Part shown: in pieces, positions 2,227 to 15,161 of the stretch
Layout of the letters: the number at the start of each line of letters is the position of its first letter
How positions within the stretch are numbered: position 1 is the stretch's first letter
NCBI GenBank assembly: GCA_963667675.1
Contig: OY763929.1
Span: 642 to 64,641 of the forward strand
Length of the DNA: 64,000 nucleotides
DNA from: Dehalococcoidia bacterium
GTDB lineage: Bacteria; Chloroflexota; Dehalococcoidia; Lucifugimonadales; UBA3495
Direction: 5' to 3'
The notes under the pieces: model-generated
What the model saw: only the letters and a program-made list of their open reading frames with translations
What the model was told of the DNA's origin: nothing
Database searches by the model: none
Made by a program: the position numbers and the translations under genes

Positions 2227-2255
2227 ACTATAGCATCGAATATCGAAGTTATCAA
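2227..2255 (-). promoter_or_regulatory. Sigma70-like promoter for the D-aminoacylase gene
   Basis: Reverse strand reads TTGATA-N17-TATAGT. It leaves a leader of about 95 nt before the ATG at 2126. Confidence 0.55.
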
Positions 2256-2360
2256 ATTCCTCCAACTTGCAGCAGATACACCTCATAAGGCGCCGAGGAA
2301 ATTTCGCCGGCTGGGGATGATTCCGCTGGAGGTGGCCGCCCCCTGAAGTCGTTTACATAC

Positions 2361-3644
2361 TTATTCAGTTAACCTCAAAGGAACAAAGGACTGCTCGTCG
2401 TCGTCGCTCTCGGCTCGGATAGCTTCGACCATTTCTTCCTTGAACGCCGCCAGCAACTCGTCGCTGACCACACCGCCGGCTGCCACGGCCTTTTTCTTGA
2501 AGTTTTCGAACGTCCACTGGGTCGCGGTCCCCCGGGGCATTTCTTCGAAGAAGTCACGATCGAACACCGGCATCTCGCCGGGGCCGAAGTAGCCTTTGCC
2601 CTCCAAGGTGTAGCCTTCCAGGTCGTGGGTGCCCTTGCCCAGGACCTGCCCGGTCTGCACGTAATGCTCCATGACGTTCTTCATGCCGTACTTCTGGATG
2701 GGGCACACCTTCATGCAGATGCCGCAGCTCATGTAGCGGGCCATGACCGGACGGCAACGTCTCATGTAGACCTTGTTCTTTTCTACACCCCGCCACCAGA
2801 TCTTGTCGCGCATCAAGGCGCGGCCGGGACAGCGGTTGACGCATACCTGGCACACCTGGCAAAAGGCGTGTATGCCGTAGTCGATTGGCTGGTCATAGGT
2901 GACCTTGGCGTCGGTGGCGATTATCATCAACCGGTTCCTGTTGCCTTCGTGGGGAGTAAGCAGGTACCCGCAGGCGCCCAACTGTCCCAACCCGGCGGCG
3001 ACGAACATGGGAATCATCGCTCCCGGTGCGTCGTTGGAGTGGATGACGTGGGCGCGGTATCCCAGGGAGCGGATGAATGTCCCCAACTCCAGCCCTGCGG
3101 CAGTCTGGCTGCGGTAGGCGCCGGTGTAGACGATCTCGGCATCTATGCTGGGGATGGTCTGTGTGGACTCGAAGTCCTGTTGGTAGGCCAGGCAGATGGC
3201 GGTGGGAAGGTGAGTAAAGCCCCGCTTGTGCTTGAACTCGTAACGGGGGTCATAGGCGGTGAAGCCCACCTCGATGTAACCCACTTGCCTCGCCTTGTCC
3301 TTGATCAGCTGGGTGACATCCTCGCCGGTGGGTTCGGCAGTCGGCTCCATGTCGGCAGTCTCCCGTCCAGCGAGCACCAATTCGCGGTCAACCCTGCTGT
3401 GCTCCAGGAAGATTTCCCACGCCTGGGCGTGTTGTTTCTTCATTTCGACAAACTGCCAGTCCTGAGCGGCCTGCTGTGTATAGTCCTGCATTTCCTCGGG
3501 GTGCTCCCTGGCGTACCAGTCGACTTCCCGGTCGTTGGTTGGTATGCCGGGCACCGTCTCCAACTCTTCCGCAACGGGAATGGTTACCGGCTTGTCGCCA
3601 TAACGCTTGCCGGGCCTGACGACCTCGTGGCCTATTTTCAACAT
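2361..3644 (-). CDS. RdhA/QueG-superfamily (reductive dehalogenase / epoxyqueuosine reductase-like) Fe-S protein, cytoplasmic type, copy 1
   Basis: 427 aa. Core AGLGQLGACGYLLTPHEGNRNRLMII...FCQVCQVCVNRCP (CxxCxxCxxxCP) plus CRPVMARYMSCGICMKVCP. No Tat RR motif or TM segment. RBS GGAGGAGG. Paralogs at 8575-9852 and 12775-14064. Confidence 0.75.
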   Translation of the reverse strand: MLKIGHEVVRPGKRYGDKPVTIPVAEELETVPGIPTNDREVDWYAREHPEEMQDYTQQAAQDWQFVEMKKQHAQAWEIFLEHSRVDRELVLAGRETADMEPTAEPTGEDVTQLIKDKARQVGYIEVGFTAYDPRYEFKHKRGFTHLPTAICLAYQQDFESTQTIPSIDAEIVYTGAYRSQTAAGLELGTFIRSLGYRAHVIHSNDAPGAMIPMFVAAGLGQLGACGYLLTPHEGNRNRLMIIATDAKVTYDQPIDYGIHAFCQVCQVCVNRCPGRALMRDKIWWRGVEKNKVYMRRCRPVMARYMSCGICMKVCPIQKYGMKNVMEHYVQTGQVLGKGTHDLEGYTLEGKGYFGPGEMPVFDRDFFEEMPRGTATQWTFENFKKKAVAAGGVVSDELLAAFKEEMVEAIRAESDDDEQSFVPLRLTE

Positions 3645-3696
3645 GTCAGGTCCTCCTCCAGGCCCTTAGCATACGTCAACGGGAAGTGTAACTCCA

Positions 3697-3744
3697 AGGA
3701 TAATTCCTAGGCGGATTATAGCGGTCACACGCTGACAACGGCAA
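3697..3744 (-). promoter_or_regulatory. Promoter region of RdhA-like copy 1 (two candidate -10 boxes)
   Basis: Reverse strand reads TTGCCG-N18-TATAAT (3715-3744), plus a TATCCT box at 3697-3702. That box lies 9 nt upstream of the motif ACTTCCCGT, exactly as in copy 2. Confidence 0.45.
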
Positions 3745-3774
3745 TATTCCCGGCGACGCGTCGAGGCCGCATCA

Positions 3775-4548
3775 TCAGGCGAACACTTTGTTTCCCACAA
3801 AGGGCTCCACGGCGTCTTTCACATACCCGGCCAGGCCCTTGAGGGTCTCGGCGACGCTGCGGGGGACAGGTATTTTGGTCATAATAAAGATGAAGAAGAG
3901 CTCCCCCGATGACAACAAACCGCCGAACCCCAGCAACGACTTGAGGTCATACTGGACTACGAATTCCCCCGCATATTGGGCCATCCCCTCGAAGATCTCC
4001 TTGTTTCGCTCTGGAACCGATACGTTCTGAACAGCCATCTCCGGGCTGCCCTGGGCTTCGGGCACGTAGAAGGGGTTAAGTGACACGTTGCCGGCCAGTG
4101 CAGGGTCCGGCCGCATCACTGCGCTGAGGTCTATGCCGAACTGGTGAATCGCCGGGCTGAGCATGGGAATGCCCGAAGCCAACTCGGCGCTGGCCAATGG
4201 AAGCGCTTGGTGGATTTTCGAGTAGGCCCGGTCATTAGCCTCAAATATATCCCCGGCGGTGCCCAATAGACACAGGCAGTGCAGGCCGTCGGATGTAACG
4301 GTGGGACCAAAGATGTCTCGAGCGAACGCCTGCAGTTCTGCGTCGAGTTGGTCGTATGGGTGGGTCTTGTAGAACCTCACCAACGCGGTGGTAGTCTCGC
4401 CGGTTGCCGGGTCGAGGATATTCTCGTAGAGCACTCTAACCATGCTATAGGTCGCCTCTTCCATGCTGGACGCCCCGGACGCCGCCGACAGCAGAGCTTC
4501 TCCGCAATTAGCCACGTCCGCTTCGGTAAAATTGGCAAGGTCGTACAT
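3775..4548 (-). CDS. Hypothetical protein, orphan family (C-terminal half weakly GAF-like), copy 1
   Basis: Start set at MYDLANFTEADV by alignment to the paralog at 24993-25724 (MYEFAKLTESDV) and the RBS AAGGAGAA. The ORF-track start at 4689 is probably an upstream extension. Confidence 0.6.
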   Translation of the reverse strand: MYDLANFTEADVANCGEALLSAASGASSMEEATYSMVRVLYENILDPATGETTTALVRFYKTHPYDQLDAELQAFARDIFGPTVTSDGLHCLCLLGTAGDIFEANDRAYSKIHQALPLASAELASGIPMLSPAIHQFGIDLSAVMRPDPALAGNVSLNPFYVPEAQGSPEMAVQNVSVPERNKEIFEGMAQYAGEFVVQYDLKSLLGFGGLLSSGELFFIFIMTKIPVPRSVAETLKGLAGYVKDAVEPFVGNKVFA

Positions 4549-4656
4549 CGCGTTTCTCCTTTCCGAGGCCGCAGGCGCTGCGGTCCCTCCAAGGCAGATA
4601 TTTTGCAAAAGGGTCCCGTTCAAGAGACGCCGGCGCCAGGCCTCGGCAGAGGCCCC

Positions 4657-4695
4657 TGAATAAACAGCAGGCGCCTCCGTAAGAAACACCTGCTG
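4657..4695 (-). terminator. Candidate terminator after the amidohydrolase gene
   Basis: 9-bp stem with one G-U pair (4665-4673 with 4687-4695), followed on the minus strand by TTTATTC. Confidence 0.4.
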
Positions 4696-4739
4696 AGTGA
4701 GAACATGCTATGGGCTGGGCCGGGCGGCCCGGCCCGGAG

Positions 4740-5849
4740 CTAGTTCAGGTTGTACACCCTGGCGGCGTTCCCGCCGCATATCTTGGCCTTGTCCTCTTCC
4801 GAACAGTCCGCCAGAAGGTGCCCCAGTATCTCCTGGCTCCTGGGGAAGGTGGACTCCAGGTGGGGATAGTCCGCGCCCCACATCAACGTGTCTACGCCGA
4901 TGCGGTGCCGCTGCTCCAGGCCGATTATGTCTTCCTGAAAGCCCAGGAAGCAGTTGCTGCGGAAGAAGTCGCTGGGCATGGCGTCGCTCTTGAACCTCTT
5001 GCCCGCCAGCTCCTTGGCCAGTTGGGTGTAGCAGAAGTCTGCCCGCACCAGCCAGTGCAGGGCCCAGGCTACCTCGTGCTCCACCGAGCCGGCGTACAGA
5101 CCCGGATACCGCTCGAAAACGCCGCCGAAGATCATCGCTCCCAGCGACATCCGCACCCAGTGGTCCATGTTGGTTATGGCGTTCGGCCCCAGGTCGTCCA
5201 TGTGCGAATGTTCCAGGCGCTCGGTGCCCACGTGCAGGCTGATGGGCAGCCCCGCGGCCTGGGCGGCCGCCCAAAGGGGCTCGTACTCCGGCTTGTCGTA
5301 CGCCCGCCCCGGCGGGGGAGACGTGGGGATCATCACTCCCGTATACCCCATCTTGGCGCAGCGTTCCAACTCTTTTACGGCGTCCCCCACGTCGTCGACG
5401 TTCAGCATCGCGATGCCCTTGAGCCTGTCCGGGTACTCGCCGAAGAATTCCGCAACCCAATCGTTGTAGGTCCTCATCAGGGAGCTCACCAGGTCGCTGC
5501 CCTGTATGCCGTAGACTATCAGGCCAGTGGTGGGATAGAGGAAACTCATGTCAATCCCATCGGCGTCCATGTCCTTGACATGCTCCGTGGGAATGTATCC
5601 CCCGGGACGTATGTCCTCTTTCCTGGCGTCCATCGTCTGCGCTCCGGGGTCTTCGAACCTCATCCCTATCTGGGCGCCCCCGGCGCTGACGTCGATTAAC
5701 CTCCGTCCCTGGCAGACCCACCAGTCGCCGTCTTCGAACCGCTCGATGTAGGGCATGCCCTCGCTGAACTTGGACTCGCCTCTGCTGGTCCACAGGTCCG
5801 GCGGCTCGACAACGTGGTTGTCCGAAGAAATGATCTTATAGTTGGGCAT
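4740..5849 (-). CDS. Amidohydrolase-2 family metal-dependent hydrolase/decarboxylase
   Basis: Start moved to MPNYKIISSDNHVVEPPDLW (RBS GGAGG). A promoter lies inside the longer ORF-track version. Family-typical N-terminal D-x-H and a C-terminal ...CGGNAARVYNL. Confidence 0.8.
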   Translation of the reverse strand: MPNYKIISSDNHVVEPPDLWTSRGESKFSEGMPYIERFEDGDWWVCQGRRLIDVSAGGAQIGMRFEDPGAQTMDARKEDIRPGGYIPTEHVKDMDADGIDMSFLYPTTGLIVYGIQGSDLVSSLMRTYNDWVAEFFGEYPDRLKGIAMLNVDDVGDAVKELERCAKMGYTGVMIPTSPPPGRAYDKPEYEPLWAAAQAAGLPISLHVGTERLEHSHMDDLGPNAITNMDHWVRMSLGAMIFGGVFERYPGLYAGSVEHEVAWALHWLVRADFCYTQLAKELAGKRFKSDAMPSDFFRSNCFLGFQEDIIGLEQRHRIGVDTLMWGADYPHLESTFPRSQEILGHLLADCSEEDKAKICGGNAARVYNLN

Positions 5850-5964
5850 TACTAACCTCCGGCTATCGCTTGCAGCGTAACTTTCTGGCGGCATATCCCG
5901 TTGCTTGGGTTCAAGAGTACTGGCTCTAAGGCCACAACGGATCTGCCGCATGTTTGGCACGGGT

Positions 5965-5993
5965 ATTGTGCTACAGACGCAGTTATGTGTCAA
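5965..5993 (-). promoter_or_regulatory. Candidate promoter for amidohydrolase 4740-5849
   Basis: Reverse strand reads TTGACA-N17-CACAAT. Confidence 0.4.
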
Positions 5994-6140
5994 TATATCT
6001 TCGTAGAGCCGGTGTTCCCGGATACAGGCTTCGGCTAAAGGCCCCGCATGGCGGCGCCACATTGCAGCCGGACATCTCGTTCCCGTTGCCGGGTCCGCCC
6101 AACGAATCTCTCAGGCTGATACGGTTGCCGCCGGCAGAAA

Positions 6141-6168
6141 TTGCTGGCGGCGCCATTGGGGGTATAAT
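6141..6168 (+). promoter_or_regulatory. Candidate promoter for amidohydrolase 6270-7394
   Basis: TTGCTG-N16-TATAAT. The -35 region overlaps an imperfect 10-bp inverted repeat (6127-6136 with 6142-6151). Confidence 0.4.
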
Positions 6169-6269
6169 CGCCTGGCATAACCGGCGGCGAAGGGCAACGC
6201 CTGAAGACCCCCATGAGGCCCTCGCAATTGCGCGGGGTCGTAGATAGAGCGGCAGTAGGAGACGCATCA

Positions 6270-7394
6270 ATGTCGAGAGACGGATTCAAAGTAATGGACT
6301 CCGACATGCACATCATGGAGCCCGTGGACCTGTGGGACCGGTACATGGAGCCGGCCTATCGGGGCCGCTTGCAGGGCCAGGACCGGTTTAATCGCGATTT
6401 TGGCCTCACCATGGACGGCCAAATGCTTCAATACACCGGACCGGTCTCCACCCTGCTCATGGAGGGGACGGCCCGGGAACGCGAACAGACGGCTCCCACC
6501 TACCGGGATGCCCACGATCACGGCTGGGACCCCGGTTCCCAGATAAGGGCCATGGACAAAGAAGGCATAGACGTAGCTGTCCTGTACCCTACCAGGGGAC
6601 TGTTCTCAGCGGCCGTGGATAGCGCGGGCGGCATGAGTCCCGAACTGGCCGCCGCAGCCGGCCGGGCCTACAACAACTGGATGTTCGACTTCTGCAAAGA
6701 CCATCCCGGCCGCCTCTACGGCGCCGGCTACATTGCGCCCCACGACGTGGCGGCCGCCGTGTCCGAGGTCCGCCGCTCCGTGGAGGAACTGGGCTTCAAG
6801 GCCGCCTTCATGCGGCCAGACATCATCAACGGCCGTCAATGGCATGACCCCTACTACGATCCCCTGTGGGCTGAGTGCCAGCGGCTGGGCATACCGGTGG
6901 GTTTCCACGCCGGCGGACGCCCGCCTATTCCCCAGGTGGGAGACCGGGAGTTTTCTTCCCTCATGCTGCACCACGTGTATTCCCACCCGGTTTCGATGAT
7001 GTTGGCCGCCGGCAGCTTCTGCGCCGGCGGAATCTTTGCGCGGTTCCCGGAACTCAAGGTGGCCTTCCTGGAGGGCAACTGCTCCTGGGCCCCCTGGCTG
7101 CTATGGCGCATGGACGAGCATTACGAGTGGAGAGGCTATGAGCACCCTGAACTGACCATGTTCCCCAGCGAGTACTTCAAGCGTCAGGGCTTTGTCTCCG
7201 TGGAGTGCGATGAATGGCCGGCCAAGTACGTCGACGACGCCGGATACAGCGACAACGTGGTCTTCTCCACCGACTACCCCCACACCGACTCCAAGTACCC
7301 CCACGCGGTGGAAGCCTTCCTGGCCCTGGACATGGACGAGGACAGCAAGCGCAAGTACCTGTGGGACAACTGCGCCCGCCTATACAACCTGTAG
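6270..7394 (+). CDS. Amidohydrolase-2 family metal-dependent hydrolase
   Basis: Start at MSRDGFKVMDSDMHIMEPVDLW (RBS AGGAG). Ends ...KYLWDNCARLYNL, like its divergent paralog. Confidence 0.8.
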   Translation: MSRDGFKVMDSDMHIMEPVDLWDRYMEPAYRGRLQGQDRFNRDFGLTMDGQMLQYTGPVSTLLMEGTAREREQTAPTYRDAHDHGWDPGSQIRAMDKEGIDVAVLYPTRGLFSAAVDSAGGMSPELAAAAGRAYNNWMFDFCKDHPGRLYGAGYIAPHDVAAAVSEVRRSVEELGFKAAFMRPDIINGRQWHDPYYDPLWAECQRLGIPVGFHAGGRPPIPQVGDREFSSLMLHHVYSHPVSMMLAAGSFCAGGIFARFPELKVAFLEGNCSWAPWLLWRMDEHYEWRGYEHPELTMFPSEYFKRQGFVSVECDEWPAKYVDDAGYSDNVVFSTDYPHTDSKYPHAVEAFLALDMDEDSKRKYLWDNCARLYNL

Positions 7395-7425
7395 GCGGGG
7401 CCAAAGGAGCTAGTTGCGGGTCAAC

Positions 7426-7465
7426 ACAAGCTGCCCGGCGTTGAGACTAACGCCGGGCAGCTTGT
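7426..7465. terminator. 17-bp perfect hairpin between convergent genes (terminator-like, no U tract)
   Basis: ACAAGCTGCCCGGCGTT gagact AACGCCGGGCAGCTTGT. Confidence 0.45.
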
Positions 7466-7526
7466 CATATCTAAGCAACTCCAGGAAACCGTACACGCGT
7501 TCCCAGGGCGTCGCCAACGGGGAAGA

Positions 7527-7985
7527 TTAGTCTGCGGAGACGGGTACTTCCTCGGGGACCGGCACCGCGTGCAGTAGCTGCGTCTTGGCCTTGATTATCT
7601 TGTCCCACGAGGCCTTGGACTCATCTATCAGGTCGATCATCAACCCGTCGGGTCCCTTGTATTTGCGGCCGATGGGCAGGCTGCCCGGACACTCTGTAGA
7701 GCCGCGTGCCTTGGCGGCGTCGACGGTCTCCTCCAGGCCGTCCACGTAGAACCCTATGTGGTGAACGCCCTCCACCGTCGAAGGTCCGTGGCCCAGGTTG
7801 GGGGCGTCCTGGCTGCCGTACTTGAGAATCGCAAAGTAAATGTAGCCGTCGGTCAGCCAGACGCCGTCGTCCCCGGTATCCCTGGGCCTCCGGTTCAGCT
7901 CCTGCAGTCCGAAGACCTCTTTGTAGAAGTCCGCGGTCCCGGCCGGGTCCGGGGTGTGTAGGGCAATGTGCTTTATGCGTGCCAT
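7527..7985 (-). CDS. VOC (glyoxalase/bleomycin resistance/dioxygenase) family protein, copy 1
   Basis: 152 aa starting MARIKHIALHTPDPAGTADFYKEVFG. Paralog at 19104-19562. Confidence 0.8.
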   Translation of the reverse strand: MARIKHIALHTPDPAGTADFYKEVFGLQELNRRPRDTGDDGVWLTDGYIYFAILKYGSQDAPNLGHGPSTVEGVHHIGFYVDGLEETVDAAKARGSTECPGSLPIGRKYKGPDGLMIDLIDESKASWDKIIKAKTQLLHAVPVPEEVPVSAD

Positions 7986-8097
7986 GACTCCTCCTTACGG
8001 GGCTCCAATTTGGTTGCTGGCTATCCCCCTATGCCAATGCATCCGGGTGAATGTCAATCAACTTCTCAGTGCAAAGGTCAGTGGTTCTGATCAAGGG

Positions 8098-8511
8098 TCA
8101 CAGTTCCACCAAGCCCAACTGCAGGAACCAGTCCAGCATGTCCACCGCCAACCATAACTCTATCAGCTTGCCGTCCTTATAGCGCTGCAGGCTCATGCCT
8201 TGAACGCGGACGCTCTTGCCGCTGGGCTGGTAACCGACCCACTCTCCCAGGTGAGTGCCCGTTGCGGTCCACATGGTAGCCACCAGGTCCCCCTCCGCAA
8301 CATGGGCGTCAATGTCGAAGTGCAGGTCCGGGAAGCCCGCCCGGTGAATCGAAATGGACTGCTGGATGCCGTCAAATGTGCCGGGAATGCCTACGGGAGG
8401 ATTGTGCACCACCAGGTCCCGGGAGACCAGTTCCGGGAAGACCGCTACGTTTCCCTGGTTCCATATCTCTTCGAACCAGCGCCGGTCTACAGCCTTGTTC
8501 TCCTCGGACAT
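8098..8511 (-). CDS. SnoaL-like / ester cyclase (NTF2-fold) protein
   Basis: 137 aa. RRWFEEIWNQGN...HNPP start is typical of ester cyclases. RBS GAGGAG. Confidence 0.7.
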   Translation of the reverse strand: MSEENKAVDRRWFEEIWNQGNVAVFPELVSRDLVVHNPPVGIPGTFDGIQQSISIHRAGFPDLHFDIDAHVAEGDLVATMWTATGTHLGEWVGYQPSGKSVRVQGMSLQRYKDGKLIELWLAVDMLDWFLQLGLVEL

Positions 8512-8574
8512 TGCGCTCCTCTTTCCTGTTGGCTCCCGTTTCCGTCCGGTCTCTGCCGCCGGCCCCGGTCAATG

Positions 8575-9852
8575 CTATCTCTTGATGGTCCTCACGTAGG
8601 ACTGCTCGATATCGTCGTTCAGGCCTTGGAAGGCTTCTTCCAGTCCTTCTTTGAATTCGGCCAGCAACTCGTCGCTGACCACGCCCCCGGCCGCCGCCGC
8701 CTTCTCCTTGAACTGGATGAACGTCCACTCGCTGGCGTCGCCCCTGGGCATGTCGAAGAAGCTGCGGCTGAACACCGGCATCTCGCCGGGGCCGAAATAA
8801 CCCTTGCCCTCCAGCGTATATCCTTCCAGGTCGTGGGTGCCCTTACCCAGCACCTGCCCCGTCTGGGCGTAGTGCTCCATCACGTTCTTCATGCCGTACT
8901 TCTGCACGGGGCACACCTTCATGCAGATGCCGCAGCCCGCGTAGCGCGCCATCACCGGACGGCAGCGCTTGAAGTAGAGCTTGTTCTTCTCTATGCCCCG
9001 CCACCAGATCTTGTCCCGCATCAGGGCCCGGCCCGGGCAGCGGTTGACGCATATCTGGCACACCTGGCAAAAGGCGTGGATGCCGTAGTCTATGGGCTGG
9101 TCGTGGGTGACCTTGGCATCGGTGGTCAGCATGATCAGGCGGTTCCTGCTGCCTTCGTGGGGGGTAAGCAGGTAACCGCAAGCCCCCAACTGGCCCAAGC
9201 CGGCAGCCACGAACATGGGAATCATCGCTCCCGGCGCGTCGTTGGAGTGCATGACGTGGCACCGGTAGCCCAGGGAGCGGATGAAGTCGCCCAGCTTCAG
9301 TCCCGCGGCAGCCTGGGTCCGGTACGCGCTGGCGTGCACGATTTCGGCTTGCAGGCTGGGGATGGTCTGGGTGGGCTCGTAGTCCTGCTGGTAGGCCAGG
9401 CAGATGGCGGTGGGAAGCTGGGTGTAGCCTTTCAGGTGCTTGTATTCGTAGCGGGGATCATAGGCGGTCAGCCCCACTTCCAAGAAACCCAGCCGTCGCG
9501 CCTCGTCCTTAATCTGCTGGGTAACGTCCTCACCGGTGGGATCCGCCGTGGGTTCCATCTCGGCGGTCTCTCGCGTCGCCTGCACCAGGCGGCAGTCCAG
9601 TTGGTCGTGCTCTACGAGAATCTGCCACGTATCGGCATGCTCGGTCTGGTAGATGTTGATCAACCAGTCGCTGGAAGCCCGCTCGGACATGGTCTGGCTT
9701 TCCAGGGGTTGCTCCCGGGCGTACCAATCGACCTCACGGTGTCTAAGGGGAATGCCGGGTTCCGTCTCAAGCTCTTCCGGCACCGGAATCACCACCGGGG
9801 CCTCGCCAAACCGCTTGCCGGGCCTGACTACTTCGTGGCCGATCTTCAGCAT
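8575..9852 (-). CDS. RdhA/QueG-superfamily Fe-S protein, cytoplasmic type, copy 2
   Basis: Start set at MLKIGHEVVRPGKRFG, as in the two paralogs (RBS GGGGGA). FCQVCQICVNRCP and CGICMKVCP motifs. Confidence 0.75.
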   Translation of the reverse strand: MLKIGHEVVRPGKRFGEAPVVIPVPEELETEPGIPLRHREVDWYAREQPLESQTMSERASSDWLINIYQTEHADTWQILVEHDQLDCRLVQATRETAEMEPTADPTGEDVTQQIKDEARRLGFLEVGLTAYDPRYEYKHLKGYTQLPTAICLAYQQDYEPTQTIPSLQAEIVHASAYRTQAAAGLKLGDFIRSLGYRCHVMHSNDAPGAMIPMFVAAGLGQLGACGYLLTPHEGSRNRLIMLTTDAKVTHDQPIDYGIHAFCQVCQICVNRCPGRALMRDKIWWRGIEKNKLYFKRCRPVMARYAGCGICMKVCPVQKYGMKNVMEHYAQTGQVLGKGTHDLEGYTLEGKGYFGPGEMPVFSRSFFDMPRGDASEWTFIQFKEKAAAAGGVVSDELLAEFKEGLEEAFQGLNDDIEQSYVRTIKR

Positions 9853-9903
9853 GTCAATTCCCCCATAGAATCCTGGCGTACGACTACGGGAAGTCCTGCC
9901 CGC

Positions 9904-9933
9904 AGGATAGTCCCTCGCCTCTTTGTGTGTCAA
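9904..9933 (-). promoter_or_regulatory. Promoter of RdhA-like copy 2
   Basis: Reverse strand reads TTGACA-N18-TATCCT. The -10 box is 9 nt upstream of ACTTCCCGT. Confidence 0.5.
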
Positions 9934-10025
9934 TCGGTTTGGACAGGTCTTGTTGTTAGACATGCCCGCCTCTCCCGATTAACATAGCCTCTGGGCACGA
10001 TTCGAGTTGGACCAGGAGACAAACA

Positions 10026-10835
10026 ATGCGGTTGGATGGAATGGTAGCGGTGGTTACCGGAGCAGGCCGGGGCATCGGGCAGGCCATCGCCTTGGCTTTC
10101 GCCAGGGAAGGAGCGCGGCTGGCCCTGGCAGCCCGGAGCGCTAATGAACTCGAAGGCACCGCCAAGCAGGCCCGGGACCTGGGAGCGCCGGCCTTGGTTA
10201 TTCCCACCGACGTCACGGACCGGAACCAGGTCGACCGCATGGCGGCCCAGGTAATCGACCGCTATAGCGCCATCGACATCCTGGTGAACAACGCCGGAGT
10301 TGCCGGGCCCATCGGGCCGCTCCAGGACAACGACCCGGCCTATTGGGTCCGGACCATTCAGGTAAACCTGATTGGCGCCTATCTCTGCTGCCGCGCCGTG
10401 CTGCCGGCGATGCTGGAGCGCAACCGGGGCAAGATAATCAACATGTCCGGCGGGGGAAGCCTGAACGGCGCCGCCGACATGTCGGCCTACAGCTCCACCA
10501 AGGCAGCGGTGGTCCGGCTCACCGAATGCCTGGCCTTGGAACTGGCCCAGACCAACGTCTGCGTGAACGCCATAGCGCCGGGCACCATCCAGACGCGAAT
10601 GCTGGAGGAAATCCAGCAGGTGTACGACGCTGCAGGGGTCGAAATGCCCAGCGGGGGATGGGGGTCGCTGGAGCGGGCGGCTGACCTGGCCCTTTTCCTG
10701 GCCTCCGAAGACTCGGGAAATCTCAGCGGGCGGCTGGTCTCGGCAATATGGGACGACTACTCCAAGCTCCCCGACCGGATTCCAGAAATCATGGAGTCAG
10801 ACGCCTTTCAACTCCGGCGTGTGGACCTGCCCTAG
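10026..10835 (+). CDS. SDR family oxidoreductase
   Basis: TGAGRGIG cofactor motif and YSSTK (YxxxK). RBS AGGAGA. Confidence 0.9.
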   Translation: MRLDGMVAVVTGAGRGIGQAIALAFAREGARLALAARSANELEGTAKQARDLGAPALVIPTDVTDRNQVDRMAAQVIDRYSAIDILVNNAGVAGPIGPLQDNDPAYWVRTIQVNLIGAYLCCRAVLPAMLERNRGKIINMSGGGSLNGAADMSAYSSTKAAVVRLTECLALELAQTNVCVNAIAPGTIQTRMLEEIQQVYDAAGVEMPSGGWGSLERAADLALFLASEDSGNLSGRLVSAIWDDYSKLPDRIPEIMESDAFQLRRVDLP

Positions 10836-10900
10836 AAACATCGGTAGCCCCAAATGCTCTCCAGGAATATGGACGAGCGCGGCGTAAGTTACCCGCCCGC

Positions 10901-11233
10901 CTATTGCCACTCCTCATCGGTTGGCCAAATGTTGGAGCTCCCGAGCGCCGCTCCATTCCGCGGCACAGAGGCATCTTCTTCCGTCCAGTCCTGGGTCTTG
11001 TCTATATATTCCTTGAACATGGGCGTCTTTATATGGGTCCGGTATGCCGCCTCGTCCAGGAAAACCTCGTAAAACCAGATCCGGTTGACGTCTCCGGCAT
11101 CCTGGATGATGTCACATCGCACGCAGCCAATTCGTTCGTTCCTGACCATTTCCGAAGCGGCCTCCACCCCCGTCTTGATGTAATCATCCCTGTGTTCCGG
11201 CTTTAGCTGGACGGGTGCCAAAATGATGAACAT
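10901..11233 (-). CDS. Antibiotic-biosynthesis-monooxygenase (ABM) domain protein
   Basis: 110 aa. The pattern MFIILAPVQLKPEHRDDY...FYEVFLDEAAYRTH is typical of YgiN-like ABM proteins. RBS GGAGGA. Confidence 0.7.
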   Translation of the reverse strand: MFIILAPVQLKPEHRDDYIKTGVEAASEMVRNERIGCVRCDIIQDAGDVNRIWFYEVFLDEAAYRTHIKTPMFKEYIDKTQDWTEEDASVPRNGAALGSSNIWPTDEEWQ

Positions 11234-11299
11234 TCGGTCCTCCTTCGACGTTCCTACCTCAACGGCGCTTTGAAATAAGTCCCTTCAGGCATGGTTCGG

Positions 11300-11328
11300 A
11301 CTGTATCATCGGGCCTCTGTTGGGTCAA
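11300..11328 (-). promoter_or_regulatory. Promoter of the ABM gene
   Basis: Reverse strand reads TTGACC-N17-TACAGT. Confidence 0.5.
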
Positions 11329-11370
11329 CGGCCCGCTGATAAACCCGCTGATGTGAGCTTGCCTTGCTCC

Positions 11371-12579
11371 CTACGCTTCGTCGCCGGCGAAGCGGGGCAT
11401 GACCTGGGACCCGAACAACTCGATGCTCGACATTATTTTTTCGTGGCTTAGCCCCGGGCCTTCCATCCACATAGTTATGTAGTTGACGCCGCATTCTTCA
11501 CGCAGTTCCTGGACCTGTTCGGCCACCTGTTCCGGCGACCCGGCCAATATTAGCAATTGCTTTCTGTAGAACTCCCAGTCCATGTCGGTCCGTTTAGGTA
11601 TCGCTCCGCCTTCGTCTTGCCAGTAACTCATCGGGCGTCTTTCAAATTGCCTGGCGAAAATCGGGGTAAAGAGCGTGTCGGTCTGCTCTTTTGCCTCTTC
11701 GTAGGTGGGCGCAACATAGGCCAGCCGGATAACGTTTATATCGTCCCCTACCCGTAACTGGCCGCCTTCCAGTTCGTTTCGGATATCGGTATATGTTTTC
11801 AGTGCCACTCGCAGTCTACTTGCCGGCTGGACCAAGACCACACCCTTCAAACCCAGTTGAGCCGCTTCCGCAATAGATGCCTCGGAAGATGTATACATCC
11901 ATAGCGGAGGATGCGGTTGTTGGAACGGCTTGGGTCCCAGGCGTATCCTCGCTGCCTCGCCGTCCCTGACCTCGGCGGGGTTCCCAGTAGATTCAGCAGG
12001 CGAGATCGAGGATTCCCGTGAGCGGCCCGACGGCGGGAAGGCGTAGAAGGCCCCTTGGTGGGTAAACAAAGGCTCCGTCCAGGCTTTCTTCAGGATTTCC
12101 AGGAACTCGGCAAAGTGCTCTCGTGCAGCCGTCTGCCCGCTCGATGAACTTTGTCCGGCGTCTGACCCCGAGCCCGGCAGTACTCTCTCCGGCTGGGGGT
12201 TGAAGACGGATGCGTAGGTCATGTCCCGCTCGGTCAACTCTGGGTCTTCGCCACTGCGGCCTATGGCTAACTCAACCCGCCCTTTGCTGAAGTGGTCCAG
12301 GAGAGCAATGTCCTCCGCCAGGCGAAGCGGGTGCCAGCCCGTGACCCCGACTGCCGGCCCCAGGCGAATGCGGCTGGTCCGCTCCGCCAGCATCGAGGCG
12401 AACACCACGGGGTTGGGCGAATTGGTGTGGCCGGCGTTAAAGTGGTGCTCATCCATCCAAACGCATTCGAACCCGGCTTCCTCGCAGAGAACAACTTGCT
12501 CCCGCAGCTCATCCACCACGTCCGCATAGACCCTTTTCAGCGTCAGGTCATGCGCGCCGGTATACAGTCCAAACTTCAT
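11371..12579 (-). CDS. LLM-class (luciferase-like) flavin-dependent oxidoreductase
   Basis: Start set at MKFGLYTG... Family-typical ...VWMDEHHFN...RIRLGPAV. Ser/Gly-rich insertion SGSDAGQSSSSGQ. Confidence 0.8.
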   Translation of the reverse strand: MKFGLYTGAHDLTLKRVYADVVDELREQVVLCEEAGFECVWMDEHHFNAGHTNSPNPVVFASMLAERTSRIRLGPAVGVTGWHPLRLAEDIALLDHFSKGRVELAIGRSGEDPELTERDMTYASVFNPQPERVLPGSGSDAGQSSSSGQTAAREHFAEFLEILKKAWTEPLFTHQGAFYAFPPSGRSRESSISPAESTGNPAEVRDGEAARIRLGPKPFQQPHPPLWMYTSSEASIAEAAQLGLKGVVLVQPASRLRVALKTYTDIRNELEGGQLRVGDDINVIRLAYVAPTYEEAKEQTDTLFTPIFARQFERRPMSYWQDEGGAIPKRTDMDWEFYRKQLLILAGSPEQVAEQVQELREECGVNYITMWMEGPGLSHEKIMSSIELFGSQVMPRFAGDEA

Positions 12580-12654
12580 AGAACTCGCACGTTGTCCGGG
12601 GATGAGGCTTCTACAGGCTGCCGAGTATCGGCACTCTACCCGCACCGCGTTTGG

Positions 12655-12684
12655 ATGGTGACCGCGGCGCTAGAGGTGAGTCAA
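12655..12684 (-). promoter_or_regulatory. Candidate promoter of LLM 11371-12579
   Basis: Reverse strand reads TTGACT-N18-CACCAT. Confidence 0.35.
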
Positions 12685-12774
12685 TTGCCGGCGGTGCGGG
12701 GACGGGCCCTTCAATCGCAGCGCCCGTTGCGTAGCTACAGAAATGGCTGCAGTTCAACGAGAGACGTCGAACGC

Positions 12775-14064
12775 TTACTCGTCTTCCCCGCCGGCAAGCG
12801 CATCGTAACCCACCAACTCGATGTCGGTGGTCTCGGCCTTGATCACATTGACCATGTCTTCCTTGAATTCGGCCAGCAACTCGTCGCTGACACCGCCCCC
12901 GGCGGACATCGCTTTGCGTTTGAACGTCTCGAAGGTCCACTGGCTCCTCGAGCCGTGGGGAATATCGAAGAAGCTGCGGTCGAACACCGGCATTTCGCCG
13001 GGGCCGAAGTAGCCCTTGTCCTCCAACGTGTAGCCTTCCAGGTCGTGGGTGCCCTTGCCCAGCACCTGCCCCGTCTCGGCGTAGTGCTCCATGACGTTCT
13101 TCATGCCGTACTTCTGGATGGGGCAAACCTTCATGCAGACGCCGCAGTTCAGGTACTTGGCCATCACCGGGCGGCAACGCCGCAGGTAGACCTTGTTCTT
13201 TTCGATGCCCCGCCACCAGATCTTGTCCCGCATCAGGGCCCGGCCCGGGCAACGGTTCACGCATATCTGGCACACCTGGCAAAAGGCGTGGATGCCGTAG
13301 TCTACCGGCTGGTCGTGGGTGACCTTGGCATCGGTGGTGATTATCATCAACCGGTTCCTGCTGCCTTCGTGGGGGGTGAGCAGGTAACCGCAGGCGCCCA
13401 ACTGGCCCAACCCGGCGGCCACGAACATGGGAATCACCGGCCCCGTCGCGTCGTTGGAGTGGATGACGTGGGCGCGGTAGCCCAGGGAGCGTATGAATTC
13501 ACCCAACTCCAGCCCGTGGGCGGCCTGGGTGCGGTAGGCCGCGGCGTGGACGATCTCGGAGGCCACGCTGGGCAGCGTCTGGGTGGGCTCGAAGTCCTGC
13601 TCCCGGGCCAGGCAGATGGCCGTGGGCAGACTGGTAAAGCCCCGCTTTTGCTTGAACTCGTAACGATGGTCGTAGGCGGTGAAGCCCACCTCGACGTAAC
13701 CCAGTTGCCTCGCCTTGTCCTTGATCAACTGGGAAACGTCCTCGCCGGTGGGCTCCGCAGTAGGCTCTAAGTCGGCAGACTTCCGTCCCCCAATCACCAG
13801 GGGGCGGTCCACCTTGTCGTGCTCCAGGAGGATTCTCCACATCCCGGGGTCCTCTTCCTTCAACGTGGCAAACTGCCAGTCCTGGGCCGCGCTTTCGGAA
13901 TAGTTTTGGCCTTCCAGGGGTTGCTCCCTGGCATACCAATCGACCTCCCGGTTGTTGGCCGGAATGCCGGGCACCGTCTCCAGTTCTTCCGGCACGGGAA
14001 TGGTTACCGGGCTGTCGCCGTAGCGCTTGCCGGGCCTGACTACCTCGTGGCCTATTTTCAGCAT
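12775..14064 (-). CDS. RdhA/QueG-superfamily Fe-S protein, cytoplasmic type, copy 3
   Basis: 429 aa starting MLKIGHEVVRPGKRYG. FCQVCQICVNRCP and CGVCMKVCP motifs. Only 49 bp downstream of the NHL gene. Confidence 0.75.
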   Translation of the reverse strand: MLKIGHEVVRPGKRYGDSPVTIPVPEELETVPGIPANNREVDWYAREQPLEGQNYSESAAQDWQFATLKEEDPGMWRILLEHDKVDRPLVIGGRKSADLEPTAEPTGEDVSQLIKDKARQLGYVEVGFTAYDHRYEFKQKRGFTSLPTAICLAREQDFEPTQTLPSVASEIVHAAAYRTQAAHGLELGEFIRSLGYRAHVIHSNDATGPVIPMFVAAGLGQLGACGYLLTPHEGSRNRLMIITTDAKVTHDQPVDYGIHAFCQVCQICVNRCPGRALMRDKIWWRGIEKNKVYLRRCRPVMAKYLNCGVCMKVCPIQKYGMKNVMEHYAETGQVLGKGTHDLEGYTLEDKGYFGPGEMPVFDRSFFDIPHGSRSQWTFETFKRKAMSAGGGVSDELLAEFKEDMVNVIKAETTDIELVGYDALAGGEDE

Positions 14065-14113
14065 ATCGACTGCTCCTCCAGGCTCTCGGAAACGAGCCTA
14101 CCCAAAGCCTCGC

Positions 14114-15127
14114 CTACAGGTTGCTCTGCGGGTCCTGGTAGTTGGTGTCCTTGTGGTACATATGCAGGCGGCCCCGGTGGGTATCGCAGACTATCAGGCG
14201 GTTGGCCCGTTGGTCGAAGCCGCAGGCCACCGGCAGGCAGAACACTCTCTGTATCTCCTCCAGGTTCTGAACCTGGCTCCGGCGCTTTACCATGTCCGGG
14301 TTTGCGTCCATGGTCAACTGGGCCCACTTGGACAGCTCCCTGGCATCCCCGCGGAGATGGGTCAGCGGCTTGGCTTCGGGGTCGTAGATGACCACCCGTT
14401 CGTTCCTCCAGTCCACCACGTAGACGTCCCCGTCGCCGTCCACCGCCACCCCGCTGGGGAGTCTCAGCGAACCGGGGCCGGACCCGCCATACCCAAAGCT
14501 GAGCAGGTGATCGCCATCGCCGCTGAACTTCTGCACCCGGTTGTTATTCCAGTCCGCCACATAGACTTCGCCGTTGCTGTCGCAGGTGACGCCCCAGGGC
14601 ATGTTCAACTCGCCCTCGGCGCTGCCCTTGCAGCCGAACTCGCTTAGAAAACGGCCGTCCTTGCTGTATTTCTGGACGCGGCTGTCGAGGCTGTTGACGA
14701 CAATCAGGTTCTCGTCCGGGTCGAAGGTCAGCCCAGACGGGCCGTTGAGTTGCCCCGGGCCCTCGCCTGCTTCTCCCCAGGTTTCCAGCAGGGTCCCGTC
14801 TTTGTCGAAGACCGTTATGCGGTTGAGCCACTCGTCCGAGCAGTAGACGTTCTCGTCCCAGTCTATGGCCACGTCGGTGAGCGACCTGAATTTTCCTTCC
14901 TCTTCTCCGCCCCCGCCGAATTCGGTGATGAACTCCTCGTCCGCCGTCACCTTGCTGATTCGCTGGACCTGCGCGTACTCGTATCCCCTGTTGGCGATGT
15001 ATATTACGCCGTCATCGGCCAGGGCGATGCCTACGGGGTAGGTGAAGCCCGTGCCGGCTTCCATCAGCCTGCCTATGTTATGGGTGTAAATCCAGGCCCG
15101 TCTGCCGACAACGGTCTCAATGGCCAT
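14114..15127 (-). CDS. NHL-repeat beta-propeller protein, copy 1
   Basis: Start at MAIETVVGRRAWIY, as in the paralog (MATETVVGRRAWIY). Repeated ...G.G.G.L..P.GV.vD..G.vYVaD..N.RVq.F blades. No signal peptide. Confidence 0.8.
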   Translation of the reverse strand: MAIETVVGRRAWIYTHNIGRLMEAGTGFTYPVGIALADDGVIYIANRGYEYAQVQRISKVTADEEFITEFGGGGEEEGKFRSLTDVAIDWDENVYCSDEWLNRITVFDKDGTLLETWGEAGEGPGQLNGPSGLTFDPDENLIVVNSLDSRVQKYSKDGRFLSEFGCKGSAEGELNMPWGVTCDSNGEVYVADWNNNRVQKFSGDGDHLLSFGYGGSGPGSLRLPSGVAVDGDGDVYVVDWRNERVVIYDPEAKPLTHLRGDARELSKWAQLTMDANPDMVKRRSQVQNLEEIQRVFCLPVACGFDQRANRLIVCDTHRGRLHMYHKDTNYQDPQSNL

Positions 15128-15161
15128 ATTACCCTCGGTTCTTCCGCTGGAATCGGGGGTT

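What the first reader, a model, noticed from the sequence alone, without database searches (positions are those of the whole stretch)
2361..14064. Three ~425-aa RdhA/QueG-like paralogs with a private N-terminal extension, no Tat signal and no RdhB anchor
All three begin MLKIGHEVVRPGKR(Y/F)G..P(V)xIPVxEELETxPGIP...REVDWYARE. They carry about 110 residues ahead of the region that resembles the corrinoid domain (LIKDKARQ(V/L)GY(I/V)EVGFTAYD). They also carry the two Fe-S motifs and an acidic helical tail of about 90 aa. Respiratory RdhA proteins have an RRxFLK Tat leader and an adjacent small membrane RdhB; neither is present here. Copies 1 and 2 also share a 19-nt 5'UTR element (ACTTCCCGT.G.CGTA.GC, at 3669-3687 and 9876-9894). 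It sits at the same distance (24-25 nt) from the ATG and 9 nt downstream of a shared TATCCT box. Copy 3 has lost this element and is fused into the DUF1800-NHL operon.
Basis: partly seen in the sequence, partly recalled or inferred. Interest (0 to 1): 0.6.

Follow-up and report, generated by a model that had tools for sequence, protein, structure and literature searches.

The report
Cytoplasmic RdhA-like reductase paralogs in SAR202
Three neighbouring genes in a marine SAR202 (Dehalococcoidia) genome encode soluble, vitamin-B12-type iron-sulfur reductases related to reductive dehalogenases; they belong to a large, multi-copy, biochemically untested family of an already recognised "cytosolic" kind, so they are real and useful but not a new kind of system.

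Summary
Three intact paralogs of 425-429 aa, 75-79% identical, lie on the minus strand at 2361-3644, 8575-9852 and 12775-14064. All are under purifying selection. Profile and fold searches place them in the reductive-dehalogenase (RdhA) clade, close to catabolic NpRdhA and respiratory PceA and far from QueG. Both 4Fe-4S motifs are invariant in 82 relatives. So are the aligned equivalents of the catalytic Tyr/basic dyad, Y177 and R238. There is no Tat motif, no membrane segment and no RdhB-like ORF.

The "private N-terminal extension" is not private. MLKIGHEVVRPG is conserved across the close relatives examined, and the N-module motif is recognisable down to ~31% identity. It is also shorter than the N-terminal regions of characterised RdhAs. 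The family is confined, as far as seen, to Dehalococcoidia/SAR202 genomes, many from sponges. It usually occurs in same-strand clusters of 2-4 copies.

The shared leader element is real. It is the best-kept block of a co-duplicated promoter and leader (TTGACA-N18-TATCCT-N9-ACTTCCCGT).

A "simplified cytosolic" RdhA-like type in Chloroflexota is already described in silico. I therefore rate this a new member of a known kind. The most likely function is catabolic, non-respiratory reductive dehalogenation, which remains unproven.

The parts
2361..3644 (-). Copy 1, 427-aa cytosolic RdhA-like protein
   Evidence: ORF and translation. TIGR02486 E 7.6e-31. PDB hits PceA and NpRdhA. AF2 model pLDDT 89.7. 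Orthologs L001 96%, L002 86%, L003 85%.
8575..9852 (-). Copy 2, 425-aa paralog. The in-frame upstream extension to 9963 is not coding.
   Evidence: The conserved family N-terminus MLKIG fixes the ATG at 9852. The promoter TTGACA-N18-TATCCT lies inside the extension. Ortholog P0013/L081 is 94% identical.
12775..14064 (-). Copy 3, 429-aa paralog
   Evidence: Orthologs L007 97% and L004 93%.
3330..3644 (-). N-terminal module of copy 1 (aa 1-~105): three short strands followed by helices. No sequence match to solved RdhAs.
   Evidence: AF2 secondary structure, pLDDT 79-95. Conserved in 82 relatives. Motif VPxELxxVPGI persists to 31% identity.
2700..2861 (-). Two 4Fe-4S cluster motifs of copy 1 (aa 262-315; C262, C265, C268, C272 and C297, C307, C310, C314)
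   Evidence: Direct reading. Fer4 family hits. All eight Cys invariant in 82 sequences.
2529..2696 (-). Conserved post-Fe-S module of copy 1 (aa 317-372, QKYG..HY..TG.VLGKGT.DLEGYTLE.KGYFGPGEMPVF), a subfamily signature
   Evidence: Conserved to 31% identity. Lowest dN/dS in the protein, 0.06-0.17.
2364..2528 (-). C-terminal tail of copy 1 (aa 373-427): two helices and a disordered acidic end
   Evidence: AF2 helices 374-388 and 395-413, pLDDT <50 for 415-427. Present only in the close clade.
3669..3702 (-). Copy 1 promoter-proximal block: -10-like TATCCT (3697-3702), 9 nt, then ACTTCCCGTTGACGTATGC (3669-3687)
   Evidence: ACTTCCCGT is invariant in orthologs L001-L003.
9876..9933 (-). Copy 2 promoter and leader start: TTGACA (9928-9933), 18 nt, TATCCT (9904-9909), 9 nt, ACTTCCCGTAGTCGTACGC (9876-9894)
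   Evidence: The same arrangement occurs in ortholog L081 and, with a diverged 9-mer, in L082.
7527..8511 (-). SnoaL-like (8098-8511) and glyoxalase/VOC (7527-7985) genes directly downstream of copy 2
   Evidence: Pfam. The order rdhA-SnoaL(-RidA)-glyoxalase recurs in L081 and L082.
14114..16673 (-). DUF1800 (15162-16673) and NHL-repeat (14114-15193) genes directly upstream of copy 3
   Evidence: Pfam. 49-nt gap to copy 3. The order DUF1800-NHL-rdhA recurs in L004, L007 and L011.
11371..12645 (-). Luciferase-like monooxygenase downstream of copy 3
   Evidence: Pfam. The same neighbour (cluster 19) follows the gene in L004 and L007.
3775..4689 (-). Unknown ORF upstream of copy 1, probably starting at Met48
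   Evidence: No Pfam, NCBIfam or PDB match. The same protein cluster (35) precedes the copy-1 orthologs in L001 and L003.
372..2126 (-). Amidohydro_3 metallohydrolase downstream of copy 1
   Evidence: Pfam. The same neighbour (cluster 24) follows the gene in L001-L003.

Best explanation
The three genes encode soluble, cytoplasmic enzymes of the reductive-dehalogenase (RdhA) branch of the corrinoid/[4Fe-4S] 'class III' B12 enzymes. Each has a single corrinoid-binding core and two 4Fe-4S clusters. Family-specific N- and C-terminal modules replace the Tat leader and N-terminal unit of respiratory RdhAs, and also the vestigial domain and reductase of the NpRdhA/BhbA type. They belong to a large family that SAR202/Dehalococcoidia genomes carry in many copies, usually clustered.

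Most likely mechanism (inferred, not shown): a separate soluble donor (ferredoxin or flavodoxin plus an NAD(P)H reductase) passes electrons through the two clusters to the cobalt. The cobalt attacks a carbon-halogen bond. Tyr177, tuned by Arg238, protonates the carbanion or radical. The dehalogenated product then enters the hydrolase, dioxygenase, isomerase or monooxygenase steps encoded next to each copy. The paralogs probably differ in substrate.

Copies 1 and 2 keep a co-duplicated sigma-70-type promoter. Their leader begins, at about the transcription start, with the invariant ACTTCCCGT. Copy 3 is instead read through from DUF1800-NHL.
For: - Homology and fold. TIGR02486 RDH scores E~1e-31 for all three. 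phmmer to PceA 8q4h gives 6e-22 and to NpRdhA 7e-20. A family profile gives NpRdhA 1e-41, PceA 1e-36 and 1e-34, and QueG only 4e-11. The AF2 model (pLDDT 89.7, pTM 0.88) matches PceA and NpRdhA at E~1e-16 to 1e-15, and QueG at 3e-6.
- Catalytic residues. Anchoring on the GY motif, Y177 aligns with NpRdhA Y426 ('AY') and with the PceA Tyr. R238 aligns with NpRdhA K488 and with the second Arg of PceA 'GPRHR'. PMC7565698 describes the Y426/K488 dyad and its PceA Tyr246 equivalent.
- Conservation. Y177, R178, R236, R238 and all eight Cys are invariant in 82 family members.
- Purifying selection. dN/dS is 0.23-0.34 between the copies.
- Soluble and non-respiratory. There is no RR motif, no membrane segment and no RdhB-like ORF. 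None of the 58 full-length representatives at 30-49% identity has a convincing Tat leader.
- Positions lining the pocket by alignment vary among paralogs: 173 (S422 equivalent; Y in copy 1, H elsewhere), 233 and 237.
- Catabolic context. Neighbours are amidohydrolases, VOC/glyoxalase, SnoaL, SDR and luciferase-like monooxygenases. Each paralog lineage has its own conserved neighbours.
- Cofactor supply. Cobalamin biosynthesis is reported as enriched in SAR202 group III (PMC11245477).
- Leader. TATCCT-N9-ACTTCCCGT occurs only at these two genes. It is kept in orthologs of both lineages while the flanks drift. DNA homology between copies 1 and 2 begins at -43.
Against: - No activity, cofactor or expression data exist for any member.
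- Scores are below NCBIfam's curated RDH cut-off (108-111 against 160 bits). Pfam's Dehalogenase model PF13486 does not report them at E<=1.
- The third NpRdhA substrate residue, R552, lies in an insertion that is absent here.
- The Tyr column is not uniformly conserved in the 31-47% identity relatives. The alignment is uncertain in that region.
- No electron-donor gene is linked in the window or in the 82 loci.
- I could not inspect model coordinates. The pocket geometry and the role of the N-terminal hairpin are therefore unverified.
- Leader RNA folds are no more stable than shuffled sequences (z -0.19 to +1.7).
Confidence: 0.6

Rival explanations
1. They have the RdhA fold and bind corrinoid, but they catalyse a different reduction on non-halogenated substrates. 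Examples would be epoxide reduction as in QueG, or reductive removal of another leaving group from recalcitrant dissolved organic matter. On this reading they are one more of SAR202's expanded enzyme families.
For: - Scores are below the curated RDH cut-off, and PF13486 does not report them.
- The N- and C-terminal modules are family-specific and strongly conserved.
- The host is a typical aerobic-heterotroph SAR202 region full of oxidative paralog families.
- The commonest neighbour in the main orthogroup is a TPP enzyme, not a haloaromatic pathway.
- R552 is absent.
Against: - The Tyr/Arg dyad typical of RdhAs, and not of QueG chemistry, is invariant.
- The profile is far closer to NpRdhA and PceA than to QueG.
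- The only chemistries I know of for this superfamily are dehalogenation and epoxyqueuosine reduction (my own knowledge).
Confidence: 0.25
2. They are divergent QueG (tRNA epoxyqueuosine reductase) paralogs, as some automatic annotations say.
For: JGI labels several family members 'epoxyqueuosine reductase'. There are weak TIGR00276 hits of 32-41 bits.
Against: - The QueG cut-off is 200 bits.
- No DUF1730 or HEAT-type C-terminal domain is reported by Pfam.
- QueG is a distant second by profile (4e-11 against 1e-41) and by fold (TM 0.35 against 0.5-0.6).
- Up to four clustered copies per locus is implausible for a tRNA-modification enzyme.
Confidence: 0.03
3. They are respiratory reductive dehalogenases that reach the membrane by an unrecognised route.
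For: The host class Dehalococcoidia contains the classical organohalide respirers. PceA is a top structural match.
Against: - There is no Tat motif, no hydrophobic segment and no rdhB in 18 kb.
- Neighbours are soluble catabolic enzymes.
- The whole sequence neighbourhood lacks Tat leaders.
- SAR202 is regarded as an aerobic heterotroph lineage in the SAR202 papers read.
Confidence: 0.03
4. They are Fe-S electron-transfer proteins that have lost corrinoid binding, like the vestigial domain of NpRdhA. On this reading they act only as ferredoxin-like redox partners.
For: Pfam sees only Fer4 domains, below threshold. Automatic names include 'ferredoxin' and 'PFOR delta subunit'.
Against: - The core aligns with the functional, not the vestigial, NpRdhA domain (124 against 20 bits).
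- The AGLGQLG...P..G.R.R...TD motifs and the Tyr/Arg dyad are invariant.
- The core is under strong purifying selection (dN/dS 0.20-0.27).
Confidence: 0.05

Closest known systems
'Simplified cytosolic' RdhA-like proteins of Chloroflexota and Desulfobacterota (in-silico class in Microbiome 2025, PMC12219181)
   Same: About 395-430 aa. No Tat signal, no RdhB and no membrane helix. No vestigial second cobalamin domain and no fused reductase. Found in Chloroflexota, in carbon-degradation gene contexts.
   Different: That class was defined from cold-seep sediment metagenomes. I could not compare sequences directly. The SAR202-wide multi-copy expansion, the MLKIGHEVVRPG N-module and the conserved post-Fe-S module are not mentioned in the passages I read.
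NpRdhA (Nitratireductor pacificus) and BhbA (Comamonas 7D-2), catabolic oxygen-tolerant reductive dehalogenases (PDB 4RAS, 6ZXU)
   Same: Best profile match (1e-41). Cytoplasmic and non-respiratory. Equivalents of the Tyr426/Lys488 dyad are present as Y177/R238. Same two-cluster ferredoxin insert.
   Different: NpRdhA has ~700 aa, including an N-terminal vestigial cobalamin-domain duplicate that makes it a monomer. BhbA and self-sufficient types carry a C-terminal NAD(P)H reductase. R552 has no counterpart here. Identity is only ~18-22% in structural alignments.
PceA, respiratory tetrachloroethene reductive dehalogenase (PDB 4UQU, 8Q4H)
   Same: Similar overall size and single-core architecture. 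Top Foldseek matches (E~1e-16, alignments spanning ~460 columns). Tyr and 'GPRHR' Arg equivalents are present.
   Different: PceA has a Tat leader and a membrane anchor PceB, and it is periplasm-facing and oxygen-sensitive. Its N-terminal unit shows no sequence similarity to the one here.
QueG, epoxyqueuosine reductase (PDB 5D08, 5D6S)
   Same: Same superfamily core and double-cluster domain.
   Different: Much more distant. QueG has a tRNA-binding C-terminal domain and Asp-based chemistry, and is typically single-copy.
Cytoplasmic Rdh homolog of marine Dehalococcoidia DEH-C11 (Wasmund et al. 2016, as cited in PMC7506110)
   Same: A marine Dehalococcoidia Rdh homolog, about 32-35% similar to BhbA and NpRdhA.
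   Different: It is a single gene in a sediment anaerobe. Its sequence was not compared here.

Membership tests
RdhA/QueG superfamily (corrinoid + 2x[4Fe-4S] 'class III' B12 enzymes) | Nitroreductase-like corrinoid-binding core followed by a ferredoxin-like double-cluster domain | tested here: met
   HMM and phmmer alignments over residues ~108-318 to NpRdhA and PceA. Foldseek E~1e-16 with a high-confidence model.
RdhA/QueG superfamily (corrinoid + 2x[4Fe-4S] 'class III' B12 enzymes) | Eight cysteines in two cluster motifs (CxxCxxCxxxCP and C...CxxCxxxCP) | tested here: met
   C262, C265, C268, C272 and C297, C307, C310, C314. Invariant in 82 sequences.
RdhA/QueG superfamily (corrinoid + 2x[4Fe-4S] 'class III' B12 enzymes) | Actual binding of a corrinoid cofactor | not testable with these tools
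   Needs purified protein (UV-vis, EPR, cobalt analysis).
Reductive dehalogenase catalytic subunit RdhA (TIGR02486 / PF13486) | Closer to RdhAs than to QueG by profile and by fold | tested here: met
   108-111 bits against 32-41 bits. 1e-41 and 1e-36 against 4e-11. TM 0.5-0.6 against 0.35.
Reductive dehalogenase catalytic subunit RdhA (TIGR02486 / PF13486) | Score at or above the curated family cut-off | tested here: not met
   TIGR02486 scores 108-111 bits against a cut-off of 160.35. PF13486 is not listed at E<=1.
Reductive dehalogenase catalytic subunit RdhA (TIGR02486 / PF13486) | Catalytic Tyr with an adjacent Arg/Lys (PceA Y246/R305; NpRdhA Y426/K488) | tested here: met
   Y177 and R238 by alignment, invariant in 82 sequences. 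Roles are taken from PMC7565698. This rests on alignment only, not geometry.
Reductive dehalogenase catalytic subunit RdhA (TIGR02486 / PF13486) | Reductive carbon-halogen bond cleavage | not testable with these tools
   Needs an enzyme assay.
Respiratory (organohalide-respiring) RdhA | N-terminal twin-arginine (RRxFLK) signal peptide | tested here: not met
   No RR motif in the first 80 residues. No hydrophobic stretch. The in-frame extension of copy 2 also lacks one.
Respiratory (organohalide-respiring) RdhA | Adjacent small membrane anchor gene rdhB | tested here: not met
   No ORF of 50-200 aa with two or more membrane-like segments in 1..18000. Flanking genes are soluble enzymes.
NpRdhA/BhbA-type catabolic RdhA | Cytoplasmic, without Tat or RdhB | tested here: met
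NpRdhA/BhbA-type catabolic RdhA | N-terminal vestigial second cobalamin-domain copy (~700-aa protein) | tested here: not met
   The proteins are 425-429 aa with one core. NpRdhA residues ~79-221 have no counterpart.
NpRdhA/BhbA-type catabolic RdhA | C-terminal NAD(P)H:ferredoxin reductase module (self-sufficient members) | tested here: not met
   No FAD, NAD or Fer2 domains. Such a fusion is seen only in a distant relative, P0229.
NpRdhA/BhbA-type catabolic RdhA | Substrate-hydroxyl binding residues S422 and R552 | tested here: not met
   R552 falls in a 3-residue insertion that is absent here. The S422 equivalent is H or Y173.
'Simplified cytosolic' RdhA-like type (PMC12219181) | About 395 aa, Chloroflexota/Desulfobacterota, without Tat, membrane helix, vestigial domain or reductase | tested here: met
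   Matches the published description on length, taxon and architecture.
'Simplified cytosolic' RdhA-like type (PMC12219181) | Falls in the same phylogenetic clade as the published sequences | not tested
QueG (epoxyqueuosine reductase) | TIGR00276 equivalog score, DUF1730 N-domain and HEAT-like tRNA-binding C-domain | tested here: not met
   32-41 bits against a cut-off of 200. No such Pfam domains.

The most novel reading that the evidence does not exclude
SAR202 bacteria, including abundant sponge symbionts, carry a clade-wide, clustered and diversifying set of oxygen-compatible B12-dependent cytosolic reductases, several to many per genome. This set would be a previously overlooked arm of their machinery for recalcitrant organic matter. 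Either it makes them major aerobic consumers of natural organobromines, such as sponge bromotyrosine and bromophenol metabolites. Or the family performs a reductive chemistry not yet known for the RdhA fold, with the conserved N-terminal hairpin and the post-Fe-S module acting as a new docking or gating device.
Probability: 0.2. Interest if true: 0.7.

Novelty: new member of a known kind. Interest (0 to 1): 0.4.

Why it matters
SAR202 is one of the most abundant bacterial lineages of the dark ocean and of high-microbial-abundance sponges. Its role is discussed almost entirely in terms of oxidative enzyme families. The SAR202 and sponge-Chloroflexi papers I could search do not mention this family. 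Automatic annotation scatters it under 'hypothetical', 'ferredoxin', 'PFOR delta subunit', 'PreA' and 'QueG'.

If these proteins are active cytosolic dehalogenases, three consequences follow:
- They would link SAR202 to marine organohalogen turnover under oxic conditions.
- They would create a B12 demand in these cells.
- They would offer compact ~48-kDa single-core candidates for biocatalysis, simpler than NpRdhA.

The practical gain now is a correct family assignment, a corrected start codon for copy 2, and a list of residues and constructs to test.

Tried and rejected
- Profile re-search. A search of the 5.8-billion-protein database with the diverse alignment A2 returned the same close clade and added no distant named relatives.
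- Leader RNA. In three of five leaders the minimum-energy fold pairs CUUCCC with the Shine-Dalgarno region. None folds better than shuffles (z -0.19 to +1.7), so an SD-sequestering hairpin is unsupported.
- Known RNA families. No Rfam family at gathering thresholds (no cobalamin riboswitch among them) and no tRNA was found in the window.
- The 19-nt element as a unit. Only the first 9 nt (ACTTCCCGT) are invariant. The second half already differs in the 94%-identical copy-2 ortholog.
- Conserved partner genes. Neighbour clustering in 80 loci gave a TPP enzyme (35 loci), a pentapeptide-TIR protein, an aminotransferase and an FlK-type thioesterase, plus housekeeping genes. No ferredoxin, flavodoxin or reductase partner appeared.
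- Fusion proteins among distant relatives. One fusion, with an ABC ATPase, is probably a gene-call run-on. One is a genuine reductase fusion, but at only 34% identity.
- The unknown ORF upstream of copy 1 has no Pfam, NCBIfam or PDB match.
- A CCGC-N6-GCGG hairpin in the leader of the main orthogroup shows no covariation.
- Additional copies. There are no further RdhA-like copies elsewhere in the window.

Full report
**1. What is there**

Three ORFs lie on the minus strand at 2361-3644 (427 aa), 8575-9852 (425 aa) and 12775-14064 (429 aa). They are mutually 75-79% identical in protein and 79-83% in DNA. All begin MLKIGHEVVRPGKR(Y/F)G.

Copy 2's reading frame stays open for 37 more codons, up to 9963. 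Public gene calls use that longer form (P0013, 462 aa). Two results place the true start at 9852:
- A near-consensus promoter, TTGACA-N18-TATCCT, lies inside the extension.
- The MLKIG N-terminus is conserved in all relatives.

A tblastn search finds no further copies in the window. Between copies, dN/dS is 0.23-0.34. It is lowest (0.06-0.17) in residues 321-372. All three copies are therefore maintained by selection.

**2. Which family**

Sequence profiles:
- Pfam reports only sub-threshold Fer4 domains.
- NCBIfam TIGR02486 (reductive dehalogenase) matches at E~1e-31 with 108-111 bits, below its 160-bit cut-off. QueG TIGR00276 scores only 32-41 bits.
- Against PDB sequences the best hits are PceA (8q4h, 6e-22), NpRdhA (4ras, 7e-20) and PceA (4uqu, 3e-15). 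QueG reaches only 4e-4.
- A profile of 17 diverse relatives raises this to NpRdhA 1e-41, PceA 1e-36 and 1e-34, and QueG 4e-11.

Structure:
- An AlphaFold2 model of copy 1 is confident (pLDDT 89.7, pTM 0.88).
- Its Foldseek matches are PceA (E~1e-16, TM ~0.52) and NpRdhA (E~1e-15, TM up to 0.60), with QueG far behind (3e-6, TM 0.35).

The proteins are therefore RdhA-clade, not QueG.

**3. Catalytic and cofactor features**

Both cluster motifs are intact: C262/265/268/272 and C297/307/310/314.

Anchoring the alignment on the conserved GY motif gives these equivalences:
- Y177 ('AY') corresponds to NpRdhA Y426 and to the PceA Tyr.
- R238 corresponds to NpRdhA K488 and to the second Arg of PceA 'GPRHR'.

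Y426/K488 is the proposed proton-donor dyad of NpRdhA, and PceA Tyr246 is its equivalent (PMC7565698). Y177, R178, R236, R238 and all eight Cys are invariant in 82 family members.

NpRdhA R552 lies in an insertion that is absent here. The position equivalent to S422 is His in most members but Tyr in copy 1. Positions 233 and 237, which flank the catalytic Arg, vary between paralog lineages. That pattern fits substrate diversification, but this is inference.

I could not inspect the model coordinates, so pocket geometry is unverified.

**4. Tat, RdhB and the 'private extension'**

- No RR motif occurs in the first 80 residues.
- The maximum 19-residue hydropathy is 1.5.
- No small multi-membrane-segment ORF exists in 18 kb.
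- The intergenic gaps downstream of the copies (234, 63 and 129 nt) leave no room for an rdhB.

This part of the reading is correct, but it is the defining state of a known class. Cytosolic/catabolic RdhAs are established, and a 'simplified cytosolic' type averaging 395 aa is described from Chloroflexota and Desulfobacterota (PMC12219181). A cytoplasmic Rdh homolog in marine Dehalococcoidia is also on record (PMC7506110). Of 58 full-length representatives at 30-49% identity, none has a convincing Tat leader.

The N-terminal ~105 residues form three short strands followed by helices. They have no sequence match to solved RdhAs, but they are not private:
- The N-terminus is nearly invariant in 82 relatives from other genomes.
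- The motif VPxELxxVPGI persists in ~380-aa relatives of 31-47% identity.

The module is also shorter than the pre-core regions of PceA (~235 residues) and NpRdhA (~350 residues).

The C-terminal '90-aa acidic tail' is really two parts. Residues 317-372 form a conserved module shared across the wider subfamily. The remainder is a clade-specific pair of helices with a disordered acidic end.

**5. Distribution**

- The first database search reported 1,699 proteins at E<=0.001 among the candidates scored. The best 120 listed were all at least 69% identical.
- The representative library gave 2,039 clusters at E<=0.001 and 87 at E<=1e-30.
- In one-genome-per-species contigs, 267 stretches encode relatives. 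The 80 loci kept are all labelled Dehalococcoidia, Chloroflexota or SAR202. By my reading of the isolate names, several come from sponge metagenomes.
- The nearest genome is OZ219860/61, whose ortholog is 96% identical.
- Of 82 loci, 43 hold two to four same-strand copies within ~9 kb. Three copies in 11.7 kb is therefore the family's normal habit.
- Each window copy has orthologs elsewhere: copy 1 in L001-L003; copy 2 in L081; copy 3 in L004 and L007. The duplications thus predate these genomes.

The window is typical SAR202. It carries five luciferase-like monooxygenase genes, tandem CoA-transferases, short-chain dehydrogenases (SDRs), amidohydrolases and two DUF1800 clusters. Cobalamin synthesis is reported as enriched in SAR202 group III (PMC11245477).

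**6. Context of each copy**

| Copy | Upstream | Downstream | Where the order recurs |
|---|---|---|---|
| 1 | Unknown ORF (3775-4689) | Amidohydro_3 hydrolase | L001 and L003; downstream hydrolase also in L002 |
| 2 | Divergent SDR | SnoaL, then glyoxalase/VOC | L081, L082 |
| 3 | DUF1800, NHL (49-nt gap) | Luciferase-like monooxygenase | L004, L007, L011 |

No ferredoxin or reductase partner is linked to any copy. In the largest orthogroup the commonest neighbour is a TPP-dependent enzyme on the same strand (35 of 80 loci).

**7. The leader element**

TATCCT-N9-ACTTCCCGT occurs exactly twice in the window, against 0.09 expected by chance.

- In copy 2, TATCCT sits 18 nt after a perfect TTGACA. 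It is therefore a -10 box, and ACTTCCCGT begins at about the transcription start.
- The 9-mer is invariant in copy-1 orthologs L001-L003 and in copy-2 ortholog L081, while the flanks drift. The second half of the 19-mer is not conserved.
- A more distant copy-2-like locus, L082, keeps the promoter but has ATTTCGCCT in place of the 9-mer.
- DNA homology between copies 1 and 2 starts at -43.

The simplest reading is a co-duplicated promoter and leader, with selection on its first nine transcribed bases. The function could be start-site context, an operator, or pairing with the ribosome-binding site. The folds give no support for that pairing. No Rfam family reaches its gathering threshold anywhere in the window.

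**8. Verdict**

The genes are best filed as members of the cytosolic, non-respiratory branch of the RdhA family, matching the 'simplified cytosolic' description. They have family-specific terminal modules. Their SAR202-wide expansion is not mentioned in the literature I could search.

The function, most likely catabolic reductive dehalogenation, is inferred from homology and conserved residues only.

Noticed in passing
window 52000-53700: A low-GC islet (0.535 against ~0.62) lies between argD (50751-51941) and argB (53766-54590). It contains only small unknown minus-strand ORFs (52060-52422, 52447-52740, 52819-53223, 53270-53569). It may be an insertion into the arginine gene cluster.
   Followed up: partly
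window 57647-61132: A second low-GC stretch encodes two PD40/WD40 beta-propeller proteins, the second with leucine-rich repeats. To my knowledge, such eukaryote-like repeat proteins are common in sponge symbionts.
   Followed up: partly
window 25916-29740: A second DUF1800-DUF1501-NHL gene cluster, paralogous to the DUF1800-NHL pair upstream of copy 3. That pair lacks the DUF1501 gene.
   Followed up: partly
window 3775-4689 (-): ORF with no Pfam, NCBIfam or PDB match, conserved upstream of copy-1 orthologs (L001, L003). A terminator-like 14-bp hairpin (4695-4665) from the preceding gene overlaps its annotated 5' end, so it probably starts at Met48.
   Followed up: partly
window 2625-3710 (+), 8200-9987 (+), 12292-13770 (+): Long antisense ORFs (361-595 aa) overlie each rdhA-like gene. 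They recur in 44 related loci. I interpret them as GC-rich shadow frames rather than genes. In my own greedy ORF pick they displaced the true gene at many loci, so gene callers could make the same error.
   Followed up: partly
L031-L080, about 3940-4003: The largest orthogroup of the family (N-terminus MLTIGHEVVRPGRHW) has a different conserved leader: TATAAAT, then an invariant CCGC-N6-GCGG inverted repeat with a variable loop, then GAGGAGG. There is no covariation, so it could be a small hairpin or a protein-binding site.
   Followed up: partly
L014-L030 and similar loci: Recurrent locus layout: a TPP-dependent enzyme, then 2-3 clustered rdhA-like genes, then on the opposite strand a pentapeptide-repeat/TIR protein and an FlK-family (fluoroacetyl-CoA thioesterase-like) hotdog thioesterase.
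   Followed up: partly
window 11371-12645, 34706-39128, 40859-41785; 20960-23496: Five luciferase-like monooxygenase paralogs and two tandem family-III CoA-transferases. These are the hallmark paralog expansions described for SAR202.
   Followed up: no
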